Below, one piece after another: positions 22,989 through 33,571 of a DNA stretch of 64,000 bases. The notes under the pieces were generated by a model that was not told the DNA's origin, did not search any database, and saw nothing but the letters and a program-made list of their open reading frames with translations. The translations under genes were made by a program, and so were the position numbers. How positions within the stretch are numbered: position 1 is the stretch's first letter; each line of letters begins with the position of its first letter. The DNA is from the human T2T-CHM13v2.0 reference genome, Homo sapiens, in NCBI RefSeq assembly GCF_009914755.1, contig NC_060928.1. The stretch is one strand, 5' to 3'.

Positions 22989-25659
22989 TTAGATCTCCCA
23001 ACCTTTGAAGTGAGCAGAAAAATCTTTTTAGTCATTCTTTTCCCTTCACTGAGCCTGTTGTGACTTGAAAATATTGAGTTGCCATTTTTGCTGTAACTGC
23101 CTTACAAGGATTCTGCCTTGCAACCATCTCTTTCAAAAGGCTGACTTTTTCTTGTTTACAACAAGTTGTAGAATCATAGTTGATTATATGTTATATTAGA
23201 GTGGGAAGGGGCCTTAGAGATCATTTAGTTCAGCGCCTCTTTTCATAAGATGCTTAACGGTATGTCTTAATCACAGCCCTAGTTTGTGTCTGAGCCAGGT
23301 TTGTAACTCAGGTAGCCTGACTCCAAGTAATCCAAATTTTCTCACTATACAGGGTAAAAAACCACCTATAAAGAATTGTGTAGGGGGAAATGATTTTGAA
23401 GTGTGAATTGAAGCAGATTCTCTGCTCCAGGTTTATAATTCTACTGAAAACCAAGAACTAATGAACTAATACTTAGCTGTATGAGAAAGGAATTCCAGGG
23501 GAATATAGCAATTGGTTTTTCTTTTCCCTTTTGCACCTCCTATCAGTGTGAGCAGGATCTGAATTTTCCTGTTTTACAGATTCAACTACAAAGAAAGAAT
23601 TATGAACAGAAACTCTACTACTTCATAAAGAAGAAGAGGCCTTGATTAATAAATAACCCTTCAGATGTTGTACAGGGAAAAACGGGGTGCCCCAATTTCT
23701 GGGAGTCACCCCACTTCACTTACCCTGGGGCCTGTTTTACAGGCATTTGCCTGCTTAGTTAATTGTAGTTATTCCCAAAATAAACCCCATTTTGTGTGGG
23801 ACTCTTCTATTCTGAGGGAATGATGTAAGCAAGAATATTGGCTGGAGTATCTTGAATATCTGTGATAGATGGCTCCTTAGAATGAATCTTAAATCTCCAA
23901 GGGACTCCTTTTATCTTGTGATTTTGCTCACAGGTTCTAAGCTGCTGCTGGGAAGGGTTCCAGTTCTATATTCTCTGTCTTCTGGAAGCACTGATGAAAT
24001 CACTCAGCTGCTACCCGCTTCCATCTCTCACTAAGCACCTCTTGGCTCTCCTTCGTCCCCACAGACTGAAGGCATGGAGGTGACTAATGAGATGTGTCTT
24101 CCCCTTCAAATTGTTCACAAGCCCCACATGACCTTTGGCAGGCAGGGGTTCTACTGTGGTGTTTCTGACTGTGGATAAGGGGACATATGTGCTCACCATG
24201 GTTTGCTATTTCTCCTTGCTCTCCTGTGACCGGTGCGGCAGCTCAGTTAAATGGTCAGGCATGGTTCATTGGTGGCCCCCAAACAATCCATCAGCAGTGG
24301 ACACATTATAGAAAACATGGCTTTGAGTCTTAGCTTAAACTATATTTATGTAGCATGACAGTAGGAGAAATATCTAATTGTGCTTGGATTAAAATTCAAT
24401 CAAAGGCCTCATGACTGGCTTGGAGATGCCGGGGTCCACACACCATGTTTTCCAGAGAAGTCAAGATGAGAGAGGATGTGGTCTGTTCTGTCATGAACAG
24501 TTCTGTTTCCAGACCATTTCTCAAAGTCACTGAAGGCCCATTTCTGGGGAAATGATTACTAAACTGATGATTATTTTCTTTGTATTGCTGGCTATTCTCA
24601 ACTTCAGGGAAAATGTAAGGTAGCTGTGGAGTTTAAGGAAAAAAGAATGTGTACACAAAATGAGAAGCCACACCTGCCTGTAGCACTAGCAAAAATCAAA
24701 GAAGTCTGCCTTATTTTAACATTTTCAGTAAACACCAGCCACCTCAACACAAAATTAGTATTTGAATCAAATTAACGTATTTGACTCAATCACCTAAAAA
24801 ATAGCTATTGGATGAAAAAATAAAAGAGAAAATAGTGTCTAATTAGTGACTGGCCATTTTCAAAGTGGCTTCTCCTACATTATCTCATTTTTAAAAAAGT
24901 AAATTTGATCTTTTTAAATGTTAGAGTGAAGTGGTTCACAATTGCTTGAAATAAGCAAAAGACATTATATTTATAAGCATGCAAATTACAAACCAGGCAA
25001 AACAGTCTCTTCTGCTGCTTTATATATTTTTGTCAACCATCATAGATTCATGGAAAGGTCTCAAATAGATAGAACAAAATGGATTTTAAAAAATTGTTTG
25101 AACTTAGCGTGTTTTTCATTTCTTTCTCTCTCTGTCTTTGGTCTCAGTTTCTTTCTCTGGTACCTTCCCTTGAAAGGTGAACTATTATTACTTGCATTTG
25201 GATAGATTATTATTTAGTTTGCAAAACATACCATTTTTCCACTCATTAAAATCTCATAGTTGCCCAACTTCATTAAGATAAATGGAATTATTCATCTGTT
25301 TTCCCCCCTTTGGCTATGGGGTCAATGAAATGATGTTAAGCAGGAGAGGATAGGGCTGGCAAACACTTTTAAATGTCACTAAGTAATTTCAGGAAGGAGC
25401 TGGCCTGCCACTGTCCTGAATGATGGATATGCTCTCAACCTTAATGGCCATTAATGATGTACATAATAACAGTTTGCATTATAACCATCGCTGTTCAACA
25501 CTTGAATTTTGTGACAGTTATAACCAGGAGTGGACACTTCTGAAATCTGATTAAAATACACAGAGAAGTAAAAAACAGAACAAAGCAAGACATAACCCTG
25601 AGACCAACAAGCAGCCAAGGATGGCAAACCAAAAAAGAAAAAGAAACAAGAGTATAGCC

Positions 25660-28600
25660 AACCTTTTTTTTTTTTTAATTAGAGTATATTATACTTTCAA
25701 ACTGGATACACTAGAAATTGGCAATGCAACATAAGATGCAAAGGAATATACCAGTTACTGTCAAAATGACCCTGTACAGCCTCGTAATGCAAAAAGCTTT
25801 ATACAATACAAATTTTCAGTAATGTACACAAACCTTGACAGTATGATCATCTGAACATAATATGAAGAGTTAAAAAAAGGATAGAAGAAAGAAAGTGCTG
25901 AGAACCCTAACTGCATTACTATATGGAAAAATAAGCTAGTTTTCATTGAAGAATGCATAGTGACAACAATTGAAGTTAGTTGGTAGGTGAATTTCTCAAA
26001 GATGTTAGTGTTTTATACGGAAAGGATATCTATGGAATACATCCTTCCCTGAGTATCAAACTGCAAACCAAATTCAGGGGTACATATTTTCTAGGGTGGA
26101 GTCTGAAAAATGCTGTAGATTTTTTTCTTTATTAATAACAATAATAATATAAAAAGTCAAACAAACTCCAAACACACCTTTTCTCACTCAGAAAACTTTT
26201 ATAATTTACCAGAAAGATTGATGACTCTTTCCAAAGTGCTAAAAAAGTTGCCCAATTATATTAAGCATTACTAAGTCATTCAAATACAAGTTCAGTGGCA
26301 AGCAGTGAAATGCATGGCATTTGAGCAGTAAACGTCTCCTTCCTTCACCTCCTCTCGTTCTTGAAAGTTTCAACCCTAGACCTCCTATTGCACAAGTGGC
26401 ATGCTGTAAAACCTATAGTCTGAATTGTCAGGGCCACCCTTTCAGGTTTTTAACCTGCTGGTGCTTAAGTGTGATTCGCCTTTTCTACCAGCCTCTGTGG
26501 GACTACTTTAGCCCTCTTTCCTGTCATCACTGAACTTGTAGTTTTGAAAACACATTATTAGCCAAGTGGCACATTCTCCATTATATGGGGATAAAGACAT
26601 GACTTGAAAACAAAACAAAACAAAACAAAAAACCAACCCACCCATAAGCCCAGTATTCTTGGAGTGTATTGTCCATAACTATCTATAGTGTCTTTTACTG
26701 AGACATTGACGTGGCGAGGTTGAACATCGTTTCAAACCTGGCCAAGAGCAAAGGTCTCTGCTGGAGAATGACTGAGGGTTTGGGAGCTTCCCGCTCCCTG
26801 TGGGCATCTCCTTAGTGTAAACAGGTTTGCCAGGGCACCAAGTAGGCTCCCCATCCATGGCGGGATGACTGGCAAAGGGAGGTGTAGCACACCTACTAGG
26901 TGTGGGGAAGAGGGGCTGGCGTGGAGGGGACTGAGGAGACCATGGTGTGGACAGACAGTACAGTCTTCTGGCTTCCTGTAGAACTGTACTAATTTCCAGG
27001 GAGCTTTCAGCAAAGCAAACTGACTAGAGGAAGAACATTAGGGATGCTTTTATTTTCCCCTGGTGAAACAGATTTTAAAAAACCCCAACTCTTAGGATAA
27101 CACATGATGGAAAACAGCAACACAGTAAGAAAATGTTCCTCCTGTACACCAGTTCTCCAATAGATAAATAATATATAAACTTTTATATTCCAAACTTCCC
27201 ATTATTATACAAAGAACATTTCTTCCTGCTCTTTCAGCCTGTTTCATACTGGAAATTCTGTTGTTTTAAAAATACAAGCAATGAACATATTCAGCCAAAG
27301 ATTTTTTTCCTTTTTTCTTTTTAAATCACCCATTACTTTTTAAGATTAGCAAAGAGCTTTACAACCAACCCACACCTGCTTCCTGCTGCAATAAAGTGCT
27401 GCACATAAATTGCCATTTTAATGACCACAAAATAAGAGCTTTTAAATAAGTATAAAGTTAGCCTCCTAGCAGGTTACATCTACCAGGCGTTAACAAAATG
27501 GAATACAGAATTACTAATAACATGGAGGATACCACGATTAGCCAGAAGATCGGCAAAACACAATGGAAACTTGTCAGGGGCATAAACTGAACCATAGGAC
27601 TAAACAGCACCTTTTTGTTGCGTCATTATATGTCAAAGAGGTTGTGGCTAAATCTTCAAACATACAGTCTACTCATTCCATAAAAAAGGTACATTTTCTT
27701 CCTTTTATTTTACTTTTTTTTTTTCAGATGAGAAACAAAAACTAGTGCAAGACCATAGCACTGTGCAAAACTGCCATTTCTTTTTTTTAGTCTGAGCATT
27801 TATACCCAGAATTTATCCAAACCCCTTTTAATCTCCTTGGCTGGATTTATCAACCATAAATTTTTTCACCCATACATTTCTTTTTCCTGCAAACAAATGG
27901 TAACCACTGAATTAATACATCTCATATATATATATAATCTGCCCTTAAAAAATGATGCACTGTGTGTGTGCACCGTACACATTTGTCTACGTGTGGGCAC
28001 ACACACAAAACACACTTAAGTTCTGTGATGTTAGCTGCAGTGCTGCGAGATATTTCTTCCAGATCAGTCACTTGATTCCTCGCCTCTTCATCACCAGAGA
28101 AGATCTGAGCGCAAGGTCTCCAGCGCTCTGGCGGAAATCTCCAGCAGCACTGTAGATGGCTACCATTCCTTCATCGACTAAGCACCAGGCCCTACCACTC
28201 TGTAGCCATCAAAGAGAGAGGGAAAGGTGATGAAGGAGCACAGGGAGAGACTGTCGTGGATGAACAACCCAGGAGGGAAAAGAACGTTCATCGCTGTTAA
28301 AGAAGCCAGTACAAAGAATGTGCAATAGAAATGTCATGGCACACGACACACGGCTTTCTCTTTCAGAATCCACAAACGCCCACACACCGCATTCACCCAA
28401 CAGAAAACCAAATGCACCAGTATATAAGCTTACAAGTGCTGATTGCTATTAAGGACACTCTCTTTAGGGTTTAACAAGACAAGATTCCTTTCAGAGAAAA
28501 GTACGGAGAAGGGCTGAGAGTGGGAGTGGGTGGCTGGGGAGGCATGCCTCTGAAGGTAGAAGTATGCAGTAGGTCACCTCTCTGAAGATTGGATAAAGCA

Positions 28601-28803
28601 GCTTTCAGGTCAATGCAATAGGTATACACACAGAGCCAATTTTCTATTCCTTACTAAAGATATACAGTACACATGTTCCAGACCCATCGGGGTCTGTAGG
28701 TTTTGCAGCAACATACACCTGCTGGGGTTGTGTTTAAGTTTTGTGGTTTTTTTTTTTTTTTTGTCTTTTGTCTCTCTGTTTTTGGTACAGAACATGGCTG
28801 CCC
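25660..28803 (-). other. ZNF827: ZNF827 3' UTR with several candidate poly(A) signals
   Basis: Transposon-free, U-rich sequence on the minus strand, downstream of the terminal ORF. Minus-strand AATAAA at 27704-27709, 27049-27054 and 26128-26133; ATTAAA at 25674-25679. The distal end is inferred. Confidence 0.7.
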
Positions 28804-29623
28804 TCAGACAGTCTCTGCTCTTTCTCTCAGTCCGAGATAGGCCAGGAAGGAGTGTTTGGGTGAGGGGATGCTGGGAGGCGCAGTCTGAGGTCGGGGAGGG
28901 TGGAATGTGAGATCCAAGTGGTTCTTGGGGTATAACATTGTCAAGGGAATGAGATGGGCAAAATCTGAGTTCCGGTACTTGTCAAAGCGCAAAGGGGAGC
29001 CGTTGAAGGCCAAAGCCTTGAGTGCCAGGTTGGGCTCTGAGCTGCTGCCGTGGGCTGCCGACAGGGCCACGGTCTGCAGAGCCTGGGAGGCAGACATAAC
29101 TGACAGGGGAGACAGGAGATTCCGGGAGCTCCCGACCACCAGGAGCGGGGCCCCCGGGCCGGCCGGTTCCTTGGGGGCTGGACACAGGCCCTTCTTGTCC
29201 TCCTCGGGGCAGTCCCCACTCTGGTGCTTCTTGACGTGGCGGCTGAAGACGAAAGGGTGTGTGGTCTTGAACAGGCACTCTTCGCAGCTGAAGGTCTGGC
29301 GTGGGGCGTGCTTCAGCTTCTTGTGCAGGTTGAGATTGTCCTTGCGCTTGCAGCTGTAGCTGCACTGGTCACAGTGGAAGGGCCGCTCCCCGGTGTGGAC
29401 GCGCACGTGCTCGATGAGCTTGTTGGCGGTCTTGGACAGGTAGCCGCACTGGTCGCACTTGTAGTGGTTGCCCAGGCGGTGCTCCCGGGTGTGCGTCTCC
29501 AGCTCCAGCTGGTTGGCCTTCACCGTCTGGCAGATCCGGCACTTGTACTCCATCTTGTAGTGGGTCTTGAGGTGGCACTCCATGGCAGCGGGGCGGTTGG
29601 TGGAATAAATGCAGAATGGGCAC
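28804..29623 (-). CDS. ZNF827: ZNF827 terminal exon open frame: 272 codons with 5 C2H2 fingers plus tail (long isoform)
   Basis: Acceptor gctttccccggcag|G at 29623. The upstream exon ends in phase 2 (AA), giving AAG TGC CCA TTC TGC (K-C-P-F-C). There are five C-x2-C-x12-H-x3/4-H units, a TGERP linker and strong third-position GC bias. TGA at 28804-28806. Confidence 0.85.
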
Positions 29624-31114
29624 CTGCCGGGGAAAGCAACGCAAGGGAGGTTCAGCCGGGAAGGTTCGGAGGCAGCCGCGCTTCTCGCCGCCTCACCAGC
29701 CTTCCCTCACACCACCCCCCAGTGTCTGAGGCCTGGCCTGCCCAGCCCAGCCCAGCCCTGCCGCCTCTCAGGGGTGGAACGGCCCTTTTTGGCTCTCCCT
29801 GCTGACAGAGCAGTCCCCGCTGACAAGCAGCTCTGGCAAGGTCCGCTCAGCCTATTCTGGGTCTCTTGGCCGATACAGGCAAGGCCAGCCCTCACCAAGG
29901 GGAGCAGAGAAAGTGCCAGGAATCAATTTGCTGGTGCTCCCCTCCAGCCCCCGCCCGGCCCCTCGGAGCCCTCCCCACTCCCGACCAGACAGCGCAGAGG
30001 TCTAAACCTCCTGACCTCCCCTCTAGATGGGAGCAACACAAAGAATCGACTTTTCATGCACCACACCAAGCACACGCAGAAAGGCTAAGAGGTTTTAAAG
30101 AACAGCTTATAGGGGGAGCGCTACCTCCAGCAAACAGAAAGTCACAGGGGTCAGAATCGTGCTTATTAAGGGTTTGTTAGGATGAGAAGGCCTGTGTGTG
30201 TCTCTCTGTGTGAGTGTGTGCATGTGTACATATCTATGTACTCGTAAAACATATCTCCCTACAGGACTAGCTCTTTGTCAGGAAAGGAAGCTGAGGACTA
30301 TGGCAGGGGCATGGGAGGAGAAGGAAGCCCACCCAACGGCCCATCTGCTAATGAGGAAGGGAGGAGGGAGGGAGACAACTGCTATCTGGAGCTCGAAGAC
30401 ATTATTAATACATGATTATGCCGGAGATAGGATAATAATCCAACTGGATTGGAAATTCTCAGAGGGCAGGACCATATCTTACATTTCCTCTGCATTCTCT
30501 GCAGTGCTTGGTAGAGTACTTAACACACGGTAAGCACTCAGGACATACTGGTTCATTATTTGAGTGGTCTCTACAGGCAATTTAGGTAGATTCTGGAAGG
30601 GCGGATGCTGGTCCCAGCTCCATCACCTTGTCAGGCTGGAGCTGGACACCCTAGCCTGGGCCTCTCTGTGGCTCGGTTTCTCCATCCTTTGCAGTGAGGC
30701 TACGCTACCACCAACCCTCCTGGCTGTCCAGAGGGGCCACGAGGAGTGGTGAGGCCATGTTAACAAACTCTGCTGAGCCTCTCTTTTAGAAGCTGCCAGG
30801 CTGGAGTCAGTGGCTTATATGAGAACTGTAGTGTGTTTGCTCTCTTTCCACAAAGAATGCAGATGCAAAAGTGGCTGCCTCAGCTCTTGCTTGGCTCCTG
30901 CAGGGCAGGGCTCAGGAGTGGACTGTCCTCGGAGGGTCTGGAGAGGTGTTCAGCAGAGCCCAACACAACCAAGTGCACCGTGCACGGCCTCCTCAGCGCC
31001 AAGCTCGCCGTTAGCCTTTGAACCTCAGCTCACAGAAGAGTGCACACGAGAGAAATATAAAGCCCATTCCCAGGTCAGGTGCACACACAACCCCTACGCC
31101 AAGCTGGGCCTTAC

Positions 31115-31147
31115 CTAGAGGAGTCTGAAACTCACCACTGTCCTGAG
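31115..31147 (-). CDS. ZNF827: ZNF827 small cassette exon (33 nt, NSGQW*; or 12 nt using an internal donor)
   Basis: Acceptor attatttttcttttgccgtag|C at 31147. Donors TG|gtgagt (exon end 31136) and AG|gtaagg (exon end 31115). TGA at 31132-31134. The peptide matches a recalled ZNF827 isoform end. Confidence 0.8.
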   Translation of the reverse strand, partial: LRTVVSFRLL

Positions 31148-31426
31148 CTACGGCAAAAGAAAAATAATAGTATAATCTTATTTGATCTGCATTATGAACA
31201 GGATATAGAGTACAAGCAGTTCCATCACAGAAAAGCAATTTAGACATCAGCAGTCTGTTTCATTTTAAGGACATTTCTGTGACCCACAGCTCAATCTTTC
31301 TTTCACTGCTCAGGCAAAGTGCTAAGGGTTTTCCGTGCTCCCGTTATTTTCTTAAAGACACTCTCTCAGGCAAATTAATTCTCTGATATGGCAAAGGAAA
31401 CAAAACAAAACAAAACAAAGACTCAC

Positions 31427-31493
31427 TGTATAGCCAGAAGGCATTATCAATTTTTTCAAAGTATTCTTCTACTTGGTCATCCTAGAACATAAA
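31427..31493 (-). CDS. ZNF827: ZNF827 alternative stop-containing cassette exon (NLCSRMTK*; coding 31469-31493)
   Basis: Branch-point-like TGCTAAC, then cgtcccctgtgtaatag|T. The phase-2 join gives AAT TTA TGT TCT AGG ATG ACC AAG TAG. Donor ACA|gtgagt follows 31427. The peptide matches a recalled ZNF827 isoform end. Confidence 0.75.
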
Positions 31494-33012
31494 CTATTAC
31501 ACAGGGGACGGTTAGCACCGCACGGGAAGTGTCTGTACCAGCAAAAGCATCAGAATTCACTGTGCATTCTCCCCAATGGCTTCAGAGGCTGGGGACTTTG
31601 GAGGTCCCTGAGGAAAGGCGAACTGGCAAAGCCACAACTGGCAGGGGCTGCAATGTTCATGGGTGTGACTGGGCTACTGGGAAGGGCAGTGAGCACTGGT
31701 CCAACCACAGAAAAACATGGTTCTGGTGTTTCTCTTTTTAAAATGAGAGCACACAAATATTTATAAAGGGACAGTGGGAACAAACCAAATCAAATCCCCA
31801 AATAAGCTCTTCCTAGGCATTTCCCATCTACTGGTTTCCTTGAATTATAATCACCCCCTCCCCAATCCCTTCTGCCCTCCCCTCCCCCTCCCCCAAGAGT
31901 GAAACGAAATGGAGTTCAACGGAGGTCCTGTTGTTCCCTGACTCTTCTATGTGGGGGAGTTTTTGAGGAGGCAGGGGCCTGGGGGGACCCAACCTGCACT
32001 GACCCCAACACTCCACTCCCAGGGTCTTTTCCATCTCTCCCTTCCTCACCCATCTAGGGGAGTCATGCCACCTCTCTGGCAGGTTGTGCGTTTCAATGAC
32101 GAACATGTTTTAAAACAAAAGGTTTTTTCCCCCTTGTGTTAAGTAAAATGTAATTTTTCATTCAACATGATCGTTTAGCTGAGAATTAGTAATTATGCCT
32201 TGAAAACTGTGTCTTTCTGTGTCCTCCTACCTGTGCTGCTTTCTCTTTACCAGACCCTAAGTGCCTTGTGAACAGGGACTCTGATTTCACTGTGCAGATG
32301 AGGTAGTACTAGGACATACATTTCTTGAGGGTGGAAATGGTGTTTTATTCCTGTGTGCCTGTTGGCACCTGTTATCAAGCCAGACACACAGTACGTTTGA
32401 TATTAGTTGATTGGTCTCACTTGAGACCAAAGGGCCTCTTGAAAATACTGGTTAAAGATGATGCTCGTTGTCTAGATCTTGGGAAGAAGACATCAGTATG
32501 TTTGCAGGAGGATCATGAAGCACATGATCGTTGCATGAAAAATGTTGCTTCCTGCCTGTTCAAACTGTCCAATTTTGGAGGGTGGGGTGGTTGCAATGCT
32601 TACTTAAAGGATATGTAGCAAGCCATCGGAAAAACAGAGAAGGTGAATCTCGGTCACAGTATGATTTATGCTTGGGGACACTAAGCCCTGAGTCCATTAA
32701 AATCAAGTCTGAACAAAACTCAAGCAGTGTAGTCTATTCTTGCATGCTGGGTTGTTTCAACATGTCTTTTTTCTTGCCCTGAATCCCGGGGTATTTGCAA
32801 AATGGATTCTCCTACTGACATCTGTTGACACCCTAGGGGGACAGGTCTAATTCAATCCAGCTAAAGGCAGCAGGGGTTCCTGACTAACTCCTCTCATACC
32901 AAGCTCCCCTTCTCCATGACTCCCAAAACCTTCACGGGAAGGGACGGGGTAGGGAAGGGGAAAGGGTATTTAATAACAACGCAGTAAAAGGTTCTGTACT
33001 TGCTTTCCTTAC

Positions 33013-33190
33013 TTGAGCCCACCGGTGGGGACAGTGTGGCATTTCTTATGCTCCAGCAGCTGTTCGGGGGTCTTCATGAACTTGTGGCACACATCACACT
33101 CAAACATCCGGGTGATGAGGTGTATCTGCAGATGACGCTCAAACATGTTCTTCGTCTTGCAGACAAAGTTGCAAAAAACACATTCGAACC
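33013..33190 (-). CDS. ZNF827: ZNF827 exon with two C2H2 fingers (GFECVFCNFVCK...HKKCHTVPTGGL)
   Basis: ccttgcag|GG acceptor, AA|gtaagg donor; 178 nt, phase 1 to 2. Confidence 0.95.
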
Positions 33191-33571
33191 CTGCAAGGAC
33201 CGAAGCTGGGTATAGAGGTGCACAGGGCAGCGGGGAGAGGAGGGCAGGAGTGGAGCCAAGCTCCTCCCCACTTCCTCCTGCCTCCTCCGACGCCTGACAG
33301 CTATACCCTTCCAGGCACTGTTCCCCATATCTCTGTGCTAAAAGGAGTTAAATGTACAAACATCGGAATCAATGTCACCCTCCCCATCCTTCCACCCCAT
33401 ACTCGGATTCAAATTAAGCCAAAAGAAATACAAACTTTAGGTGAGGCCCAGCATACTGCATCCTGGGCCTATTATCAGTTTTTGACATCGCTCCTGTGCA
33501 GGGCTTATTCTCAAGAATGGGTCATCCTGGGTGCGGAGGGTTGAGCAGGCTCACACCCACCTCCTCCTTAC

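What the first reader, a model, noticed from the sequence alone, without database searches (positions are those of the whole stretch)
28804..29623. A five-zinc-finger module lies downstream of the short ZNF827 stop codons
Seen: the terminal exon is an uninterrupted 272-codon frame with five canonical C2H2 fingers (CPFC..HLKTH, CRIC..HTREH, CDQC..HVRVH, CDQC..HKKLKH, CEEC..HVKKH), a TGERP linker and strong GC3 bias. Direct splicing from 33013 (AA|gtaagg) to 29623 (cag|G) reads GGL-K-CPFC in frame. Recalled, not verified: the commonly used ~1080-aa ZNF827 proteins end at NLCSRMTK* or NSGQW*, so this exon is 3'UTR in those transcripts. Inference: a ~270-aa longer isoform exists with an extra nucleic-acid-binding cluster. 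Functional studies using the short cDNA (NuRD recruitment, ALT telomeres) would miss it, and variants here may be mislabelled as UTR. Some annotation sets may already contain this isoform.
Basis: partly seen in the sequence, partly recalled or inferred. Interest (0 to 1): 0.8.

Follow-up and report, generated by a model that had tools for sequence, protein, structure and literature searches.

The report
Conserved extra zinc-finger exon of ZNF827
The stretch labelled as untranslated tail in the reference human ZNF827 transcript is really an ancient protein-coding exon that adds five zinc fingers, already modelled in most vertebrates but ignored in the functional papers I read.

Summary
Window 28807-29622 (minus strand) is an open 272-codon frame with five C2H2 fingers, ending at TGA 28804-28806. 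It joins exon 33013-33190 in frame, reading GGL-K-CPFC.

It is real coding sequence:
- GC3 is 0.82 against GC2 0.44. Composition falls to 0.40 with no periodicity right after the stop.
- All 120 listed database hits cover it fully. They are ZNF827 proteins, mostly 1,250-1,360 aa, from mammals to sharks and chimaera. 108 of 120 carry the same GGLK|CPFC junction.
- The finger part is 90% identical between human and chimaera, against 69% for the accepted exons just upstream.

The 14-finger form is therefore the ancestral full-length protein. Human short forms arise at this one junction: a 33-nt stop-bearing microexon (NSGQW*), an alternative exon (NLCSRMTK*), or reading into the intron (K*). Short models also occur in birds, lizards and a frog.

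It is not new as annotation. The one domain description I found gives nine fingers. Human junction reads, ribosome and peptide data could not be checked. Interest is moderate to low.

The parts
33013..33190 (-). Last coding exon shared by all isoforms. It encodes two C2H2 fingers (fingers 8 and 9 of the protein) and ends with two bases (AA) of a codon.
   Evidence: hub exon table. The orthologues read ...EHKKCHTVPTGGL here.
33009..33014 (-). AAG-TAA across the 5' splice site (CAA|GTAAGG). Reading into the intron, or using the annotated downstream donors after 33004 or 33000, gives GGLK-stop.
   Evidence: donor extensions give K*; hub table lists exons 33000-33190 and 33004-33190. 12 orthologue models end in GGLK.
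31154..31493 (-). Alternative exon entered at acceptor 31493. It reads N-LCSRMTK then TAG (31471-31469). It ends at 31154 (AATAAG hexamer at 31182), or runs on to the donor after 31115.
   Evidence: hub table (31154-31493, 31115-31493). One orthologue model (P0139) ends NLCSRMTK.
31115..31147 (-). 33-nt stop-bearing microexon. It reads N-S-G-Q-W-TGA (TGA at 31134-31132, 17 nt before the last exon junction). It is the coding end of the selected transcript NM_001306215.2.
   Evidence: hub table. Six orthologue models end NSGQW.
31136..31147 (-). 12-nt version of the microexon, using the inner donor GTG|GTGAGT. It stays in frame, puts NSGQW in place of K, and continues into the finger exon.
   Evidence: human sequence. 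Modelled in P0002 (Myotis davidii X2), P0015 (Mesocricetus X3) and P0026 (Mus X8). Not in the hub's human exon list.
28807..29622 (-). 272 codons of the terminal exon: five C2H2 fingers plus a 139-residue tail. 29623 is the first exon base and supplies the third base of the junction Lys codon.
29560..29622 (-). Finger 10 (CPFC...HLKTH). Its two residues before the first Cys (L-K) come from the upstream exon and the junction.
   Evidence: junction.
29479..29541 (-). Finger 11 (CRIC...HTREH).
29395..29457 (-). Finger 12 (CDQCG...HVRVH), followed by the TGERP linker. It is almost invariant from human to shark: only the D after the first Cys varies, to E.
29308..29373 (-). Finger 13 (CDQC...HKKLKH, with H-x4-H spacing). 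Invariant from human to shark.
29224..29286 (-). Finger 14 (CEEC...HVKKH).
28807..29223 (-). C-terminal tail of 139 aa, predicted mostly disordered. It holds conserved islands (LLSPLS.M.AS.ALQ.VA, HLIPLT, TFH, K.SFLAYLGL) and ends in -ETV.
   Evidence: 32 of 139 positions invariant; pLDDT below 50; found only in ZNF827-like proteins; no Pfam family.
28804..28806 (-). TGA stop of the long isoform. Composition drops from 0.61 to 0.40 GC here.
   Evidence: The C-terminus is at the same place in 16 of 19 orthologues.
25653..28803 (-). 3'UTR shared by the long form and by the short forms that splice to 29623.
   Evidence: Hub table. No codon periodicity (GC 0.39, 0.40, 0.40 in the three phases).

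Best explanation
Window 28807-29622 (minus strand) is the ancestral last coding exon of ZNF827. Spliced directly from 33013 to 29623, it extends the protein by 273 residues. It adds five C2H2 fingers that continue the two fingers of the preceding exon, giving a seven-finger run and 14 fingers in all, plus a partly conserved, probably disordered tail.

Human short proteins of about 1,080 aa come from choices made at this one intron:
- including a 33-nt microexon whose TGA lies 17 nt before the last junction, which the 50-55 nt rule predicts to be NMD-immune;
- using an alternative exon entered at 31493;
- reading past the 5' splice site, which itself carries an in-frame TAA.

The locus therefore works as a splice and termination switch between a 9-finger and a 14-finger protein.

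Shown here: the frame, the splice sites, the coding signature, the conservation, and the orthologue models for both forms. Inferred: that human cells make the long form; that the extra fingers bind nucleic acid, as the related CTCF and ZFP568 arrays do; and that the switch is regulated.
For: Frame, fingers and splice sites:
- Open frame, fingers and Pfam hits.
- Canonical splice sites and an in-frame join.

Coding signature:
- GC3 0.82 (0.92 in the fingers) against GC2 0.44. After the stop, GC is 0.40 with no periodicity.

Orthologues:
- One search found 358 proteins with E<=1e-3 among 2391 candidates. All of the best 120 cover 100% of the 272 aa at 68-100% identity. Nearly all are named ZNF827 and most are 1,250-1,360 aa. 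They come from bats, rodents, elephant, shrew, marsupial, monotreme, birds, crocodilians, turtles, squamates, amphibians, lungfish, sharks, rays and chimaera.
- A teleost long form (P0151) appears.
- Junction census of those 120: 108 read GGLK|CPFC, 3 read GGL-NSGQW-CPFC, 2 carry other in-frame insertions, and 7 are intron-read or other-exon models.

Conservation:
- 140 of 272 positions are invariant across 20 sequences: 108 of 133 in the fingers and 32 of 139 in the tail. The C-terminus is at the same place in 16 of 19 orthologues.
- Human against chimaera: fingers 90.2%, tail 46.8%, and the 281 upstream residues encoded in the window 69.4%. Human against mouse: 98.5%, 90.6% and 97.9%.

Related structures:
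- The nearest solved relatives are DNA-binding arrays: ZFP568 (5v3m_C, E 8e-32) and CTCF (7w1m_H, E 1.5e-30, aligned over query residues 1-139).
- AF2 places a helix in each of the five fingers, with block mean pLDDT 62-87.

Short forms elsewhere:
- Of 29 proteins new, 26 stop at this junction: 12 K*, 6 NSGQW*, 4 KTVVSFRLL*, 2 KHPEEPEEI*, 1 NLCSRMTK* and 1 other. They include birds, lizards and Xenopus laevis.
Against: - No human transcript, ribosome or peptide evidence was available to me.
- The curated selected transcript (hub table) and the one functional paper whose domain description I read know only the short form.
- The microexon has a long pyrimidine tract and consensus-like donors. 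The long form may therefore be a minor product in many human tissues.
- Most orthologue proteins are automatic predictions, and 7 of 120 are visibly faulty models.
- dN/dS could not be computed because no vertebrate DNA is held by these tools. Constraint is inferred from protein identity and from preserved frame and stop.
- Only one of the four linkers within the module is canonical (TGERP), so DNA binding is not assured.
Confidence: 0.85

Rival explanations
1. Relic exon. The 14-finger form was ancestral, but in humans (or all mammals) the exon now serves only as 3'UTR of the short forms, and its frame survives by chance or because of RNA-level constraint.
For: The selected human transcript treats it as UTR (hub table). 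Short forms dominate curated records, and the papers I read describe nine fingers.
Against: All 31 best clusters (P0001-P0031; 30 carry a mammalian name, P0028 is unnamed) keep the whole 272-codon frame at 87-100% identity, with no truncation. Human and mouse fingers are 98.5% identical. GC3 is 0.92 in the fingers, with a sharp change of composition at the stop. UTR-type constraint does not preserve a reading frame and a stop position.
Confidence: 0.05
2. The long protein is made from the reference transcript itself, by readthrough or recoding of the microexon TGA. The 33-nt exon is a multiple of three, so the frame runs on (NSGQW-x-VSDSSR-CPFC...).
For: One search shows the frame stays open past the TGA into the finger exon.
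Against: Rfam found no SECIS or other recoding element in 25000-33500; the only match was Ocean-V at E 0.62. None of the 120 orthologue proteins carries the VSDSSR insertion. Plain exon skipping explains the 108 GGLK|CPFC models.
Confidence: 0.03
3. The five fingers are expressed mainly as a separate small protein, starting at Met14 (MECHLKTH...), from a promoter in the last intron where RefSeq marks enhancers (30448-31449).
For: One unnamed 255-aa database protein (P0123) starts at that Met. The hub table marks regulatory elements in the intron.
Against: Finger 10 would be cut in half. P0123 looks like a fragmentary model. 108 of 120 orthologues join the exon to the upstream fingers. I did not search for proteins of this size (150-476 aa).
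Confidence: 0.04

Closest known systems
Predicted long ZNF827 isoforms of other vertebrates (for example Myotis lucifugus X1 at 1349 aa, Gallus gallus X3 at 1336 aa, Xenopus laevis at 1317 aa, Callorhinchus milii X1 at 1351 aa; names as given by the database)
   Same: Same exon, same GGLK|CPFC junction, same C-terminus. Identity to the human 272 aa is 68-100% at full coverage.
   Different: In human, the curated selected transcript stops upstream and labels this exon as UTR (hub table). I could not see whether a human predicted model with this structure is among the 16 RefSeq transcripts. Mouse X8 (1326 aa) is also long but carries NSGQW in place of K at the junction.
Short ZNF827 (about 1,080 aa, nine fingers), as used in the NuRD/ALT and ssDNA/ATR studies
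   Same: Identical up to ...TVPTGGL. It has the same N-terminal NuRD-binding motif and ZnF1-9, as described in PMC10933417 (passages).
   Different: It lacks fingers 10-14 and the tail. It ends NSGQW, NLCSRMTK or K.
Polydactyl DNA-binding C2H2 arrays with solved structures: CTCF (7w1m, 8ssq) and ZFP568 (5v3m)
   Same: Tandem C2H2 fingers. HMMER aligns all five fingers (residues 1-139) to CTCF 439-583, and finger pairs to ZFP568. There is one canonical TGERP linker.
   Different: This is only family-level similarity. The other three linkers within the module are non-canonical (YKMEY, RLGNHY, APRQTF), as is the entry linker TVPTGGLK from finger 9. No target sequence is known, and published work on the short form reports ssDNA binding.
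Finger-number switching by alternative splicing in other zinc-finger factors (Ikaros and Helios isoforms, C-terminally truncated WT1). Recalled knowledge; titles seen only in the listing.
   Same: Alternative splicing changes how many DNA-binding fingers the protein carries.
   Different: Here the switch is a stop-bearing 33-nt microexon, plus a stop inside the 5' splice site, at the last intron. No functional comparison of the two forms has been made.

Membership tests
C2H2 zinc finger (Pfam PF00096, PF13909, PF23611) | C-x2-C-x12-H-x3-4-H spacing of the zinc ligands | tested here: met
   Five non-overlapping matches at aa 1-21, 28-48, 56-76, 84-105 and 113-133.
C2H2 zinc finger (Pfam PF00096, PF13909, PF23611) | Profile score above the curated cut-off | tested here: met
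   PF13909 39.8 against 27, PF23611 38.6 against 27, PF00096 25.9 against 25.2. PF13465 (39 against 40) and PF13894 (26.9 against 27) are just below.
C2H2 zinc finger (Pfam PF00096, PF13909, PF23611) | beta-beta-alpha fold around zinc | tested here: inconclusive
   AF2 gives a helix in each of the five fingers and strand residues in fingers 2-5. Confidence is only moderate (10-residue block means 44-87 over the finger part, 62-87 for residues 21-130; overall mean 53, pTM 0.21). Zinc binding is not testable here.
ZNF827 orthologue group, long form | The exon is contiguous, in frame, with the ZNF827 exon that ends ...TVPTGGL | tested here: met
   Human join. 108 of 120 database proteins have GGLK|CPFC.
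ZNF827 orthologue group, long form | The tail sequence is specific to the family | tested here: met
   The 139-aa tail matched 5 representatives among 1.84 billion at E<=1e-3. Four of them carry the upstream ZNF827 exons as well; the fifth (P0123) is a 255-aa fragment holding only the fingers and tail of this exon. No Pfam family.
Protein-coding exon | Codon periodicity and a boundary at the stop | tested here: met
   GC at positions 1, 2 and 3 is 0.56, 0.44 and 0.82 inside. Downstream it is 0.39, 0.40 and 0.40.
Protein-coding exon | Frame and stop preserved across species, with amino-acid constraint | tested here: met
   dN/dS itself was not computed because no orthologous DNA is held.
Protein-coding exon | Human transcript junctions, ribosome footprints and peptides | not testable with these tools
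   No RNA-seq, Ribo-seq or MS data are held. Paper searches turned up no report.
Selenoprotein or programmed-readthrough gene | A SECIS or recoding element downstream of the in-frame TGA | tested here: not met
   Rfam at E<=1 over 25000-33500 gave only a chance-level Ocean-V hit.

The most novel reading that the evidence does not exclude
The 14-finger protein is the principal, ancestral ZNF827, and tetrapods keep a dedicated terminator switch at its last intron. The switch consists of a microexon with stops in two frames, an inner donor that restores the frame, and a 5' splice site that carries an in-frame TAA. It toggles between a 9-finger and a 14-finger protein with different nucleic-acid targets. 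If so, the published NuRD/ALT, ssDNA/ATR and EMT functions describe only the truncated form.
Probability: 0.35. Interest if true: 0.55.

Novelty: already known. Interest (0 to 1): 0.3.

Why it matters
ZNF827 is studied in three settings: as a recruiter of NuRD to ALT telomeres, as an ssDNA-binding regulator of ATR-CHK1, and as a neosubstrate of lenalidomide and pomalidomide (passages).

The domain map I found counts nine fingers. The five extra fingers are better conserved than fingers 4-9 and second only to fingers 1-3.

If human cells make the long form, several things follow:
- Over-expression, rescue and deletion experiments done with the short cDNA test an incomplete protein.
- Knock-down and knock-out phenotypes may belong to either form.
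- Coding variants in 28807-29622 are reported as 3'UTR on the reference transcript.

The practical step is cheap: check junction counts and clone the long form.

Tried and rejected
- **Paper searches for a described long isoform:**
  - ZNF827+isoform gave 79 papers, of which 25 were listed. I read passages in four of them, PMC10933417, PMC7657652, PMC11194075 and PMC11263748, looking for isoforms; none discusses ZNF827 protein isoforms. In a fifth, PMC6156078, I read only the ZNF827 passages.
  - ZNF827+microexon gave 1 paper, about circZNF827 only.
  - Zfp827 gave 37 papers; I saw the listing of 25 and none was on isoforms by title.
  - ZNF827+PhyloCSF gave 0.
  - ZNF827+'zinc fingers' gave 22; passages of a review, PMC11306022, say nothing on isoforms.
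  - Two searches were badly framed. Their minimum-terms setting let in papers without ZNF827, so they are uninformative.
  - No supplements were opened. Conomos 2014 and Sahu 2022 were not read (seen only as citations).
- **Splicing-regulator motifs around the microexon:** no UGCAUG or GCAUG in 30800-31800.
- **Recoding of the TGA:** no SECIS.
- **Antisense frame 29104-29805 (+), 233 aa:** no Pfam family. I take it as the mirror of a GC3-rich coding frame.
- **Fold search:** not run, because the AF2 model is a low-pTM string of fingers.
-, two of 17 orthologues (P0064, P0119) were mis-sliced by my script and carry no information there. The alignment replaces it.
- **P0124** (1245 aa) departs from the frame in the tail and looks like a frameshifted model.
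- **Third protein-database search:** a search for proteins of 150-476 aa was not spent.

Full report
**What is in the sequence.** On the minus strand, a stop-free frame runs from 29706 to the TGA at 28806-28804 (300 codons). The annotated terminal exon starts at 29623 behind a pyrimidine-rich acceptor (…TTGCTTTCCCCGGCAG|G). From 29622 the frame holds 272 codons. A regular-expression scan finds five C2H2 units with the ligand spacing C-x2-C-x12-H-x3-4-H, at residues 1-21, 28-48, 56-76, 84-105 and 113-133. Pfam agrees: PF13909, PF23611 and PF00096 score above their cut-offs. The upstream exon 33013-33190 ends with two bases, AA, before GTAAGG. Joined to 29623 it reads …TVPTGGL-K-CPFC… and adds 273 residues. 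Exon 31147-31115 reads N-S-G-Q-W-TGA, and the acceptor at 31493 reads N-LCSRMTK-TAG.

**Is it coding?** Three lines of evidence say yes.

- Composition. GC at codon positions 1, 2 and 3 is 0.56, 0.44 and 0.82, and GC3 is 0.92 in the finger part. The 3,151 bases after the stop have GC 0.40 with no phase difference.
- Relatives. A search restricted to proteins longer than the query found 358 hits with E<=1e-3 among 2391 candidates. All of the best 120 cover 100% of the 272 residues, at 68-100% identity. Nearly all are named zinc finger protein 827, and most are 1,250-1,360 residues long. They come from bats, rodents, elephant, shrew, opossum, echidna, birds, crocodilians, turtles, squamates, frogs, salamanders, caecilians, lungfish, sharks, rays and a chimaera. 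A teleost long form turned up later (P0151).
- The junction itself. Of the 120 proteins, 108 read GGLK|CPFC. Three read GGL-NSGQW-CPFC, two have other in-frame insertions, and seven are visibly faulty models that read intron or another exon.

In a 20-sequence alignment from human to chimaera, 140 of 272 positions are invariant: 108 of 133 in the fingers and 32 of 139 in the tail. The protein ends at the same residue in 16 of 19 orthologues; three sharks add six residues.

The human finger part is 98.5% identical to mouse, 97.7% to chicken, 97.0% to Xenopus, 90.2% to chimaera and 82.0% to a teleost. The 281 residues encoded by the accepted exons just upstream in this window score 97.9, 86.1, 79.7, 69.4 and 72.6% against the same proteins. 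Using a bat protein as the mammalian stand-in, the five fingers (90% to chimaera) rank above the ZnF4-9 region (70%) and below only ZnF1-3 (98%).

I could not compute dN/dS, because no vertebrate DNA is held by these tools. However, a preserved frame, a preserved stop and this level of identity over more than 400 million years cannot be the behaviour of a UTR. The age is established knowledge of vertebrate divergence, not a result of these calls.

**What the module looks like.** Counting in the bat orthologue gives nine fingers before the junction and five after, 14 in all. The nine match the 'nine C2H2 ZnF motifs in two clusters' of PMC10933417 (passages). The new fingers follow directly on the two fingers of exon 33013-33190, so the long protein has an unbroken run of seven. 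The residues just before the first Cys of finger 10 come from the upstream exon, so the exon only makes sense when spliced in this phase.

Fingers 12 and 13, joined by the only canonical linker (TGERP), are almost invariant from human to shark; one residue varies. The nearest solved relatives are DNA-binding arrays. These are ZFP568 (5v3m_C, E 8e-32) and CTCF (7w1m_H, E 1.5e-30), with all five fingers aligned to CTCF 439-583. AlphaFold2, run with the 20-row alignment, places a helix in each of the five fingers with block mean pLDDT of 62-87. It leaves residues 137-272 at low confidence.

The 139-residue tail has no Pfam family. In a library of 1.84 billion representatives it matched only five proteins. 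Four carry the upstream ZNF827 exons as well; the fifth is a 255-aa fragment holding only the fingers and tail of this exon. Its conserved islands and its -ETV end suggest short docking motifs. That is inference only.

**How the short forms arise.** All of them are decided at the last intron.

- The 33-nt microexon has a long pyrimidine tract and a consensus-like donor (TAG|GTAAGG). Its TGA ends 17 nt before the final junction. Under the 50-55 nt rule (established knowledge) that should spare the transcript from NMD. This is the selected RefSeq transcript, so the finger exon becomes its 3'UTR (hub table).
- The microexon has an inner donor (GTG|GTGAGT after 31136). Using it gives a 12-nt exon that stays in frame and puts NSGQW in place of K. 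This is modelled in mouse X8, golden hamster X3 and Myotis davidii X2.
- It also has an inner acceptor (CTCAG|G before 31142). This gives K-TVVSFRLL-TAG and is modelled in four mammals.
- The 5' splice site after 33013 reads AAG|TAA in frame. Intron retention, or the annotated donors after 33004 and 33000, therefore gives GGLK-stop.

A second database search, keyed on the two fingers before the junction, brought in 29 new proteins, and 26 of them stop here. Twelve end in K: six mammals, two birds, three lizards and Xenopus laevis. Six end in NSGQW, four in KTVVSFRLL, two birds in KHPEEPEEI, one in NLCSRMTK, and one otherwise.

The truncation point therefore seems to be an old and widespread feature, reached by different routes in different lineages. 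These are mostly automatic models, and I have no DNA for them. That the K-ending models arise from the same TAA is my inference from the human sequence.

**What is known.** The long form is not new as annotation. It is the usual predicted protein in most vertebrates, and mouse has at least one such model. I could not see which of the 16 human RefSeq transcripts, if any, has this CDS. The hub table lists only exons that differ from the selected transcript, and a skipping transcript would add none.

In print I found nothing on it. The 2024 Nature Communications paper describes nine fingers and works with a commercial tagged cDNA and ZnFΔ1-3 and ZnFΔ4-9 mutants (passages). A 2024 NAR paper used an ORF-library clone (passages). 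A 2024 review repeats the short-form picture without mentioning isoforms (passages). The library searched does not hold most subscription papers. Conomos 2014 and Sahu 2022 were not read.

**Rivals.**

- A relic exon used only as UTR in mammals is contradicted by all 31 best clusters (30 with a mammalian name, one unnamed), which keep the whole frame at 87-100% identity, and by the codon signature.
- Readthrough of the microexon TGA is possible on paper, since the 33-nt exon keeps the frame. It has no support: there is no SECIS or other element, and no orthologue carries the insertion.
- A separate small protein from an intronic promoter would cut finger 10 in half. It rests on one fragmentary database entry.

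**Verdict.** The exon is the conserved C-terminal coding exon of a 14-finger ZNF827. Human reference transcripts truncate the protein just before it. As a discovery it is already in the databases for other species, so novelty is low. Its value is as a warning to people working on ZNF827 and to variant annotators. The untested points are how much long form human cells make and what the extra fingers bind.

Noticed in passing
window 31136-31147 (-): The inner donor GTG|GTGAGT overlaps the TGA of the microexon. Using it gives a 12-nt in-frame exon (NSGQW in place of K) that leads into the finger exon. It is modelled in mouse X8, hamster X3 and Myotis davidii X2, but is absent from the hub's human exon list.
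   Followed up: partly
window 31115-31142 (-): The inner acceptor CTCAG|G gives a 28-nt version read in another frame, K-TVVSFRLL-TAG, whose stop is the last three bases of the exon. The microexon therefore terminates in two frames. It is modelled in two bats, a hedgehog and a pocket gopher (P0129, P0133, P0134, P0136).
   Followed up: partly
window 33009-33014 (-): The 5' splice site carries an in-frame stop (AAG|TAA). Twelve orthologue models from mammals, birds, lizards and Xenopus end in GGLK. Whether their DNA has the same TAA was not checked.
   Followed up: partly
window 31115-31493 (-): Transcripts that use acceptor 31493 and then donor 31115 would have their TAG (31471-31469) 354 nt before the last junction. 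They would be predicted NMD targets, unlike the version ending at 31154 behind an AATAAG hexamer (31182).
   Followed up: no
window 28807-29223 (-): The tail ends in -ETV, which resembles a class I PDZ-ligand end (recalled motif class). It has invariant islands (LLSP.S, HLIPLT, TFH, F-L-x-Y-L-G-L). The tail occurs only in ZNF827-like proteins.
   Followed up: partly
window 29443-29457 (-), finger 12: Finger 12 has a C-x-x-C-G hairpin (CDQCG), the feature I recall as typical of cereblon/IMiD zinc-finger degrons. ZNF827 is reported as a lenalidomide and pomalidomide neosubstrate (PMC6156078, passages). Three upstream fingers also have CxxCG in the bat orthologue. Which finger is the degron was not looked up.
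   Followed up: no
P0103 (Pelodiscus sinensis X3), junction region: A turtle model reads GGL-NGGQW-KSFRIAQEKYRLM-CPFC. This is an in-frame exon beginning like the mammalian microexon but without the stop, which hints that the cassette predates mammals. It is a single predicted model.
   Followed up: no
window 29104-29805 (+): A 233-aa open frame lies antisense to the finger exon. It has no Pfam match and is probably a by-product of the GC3-rich sense frame.
   Followed up: yes
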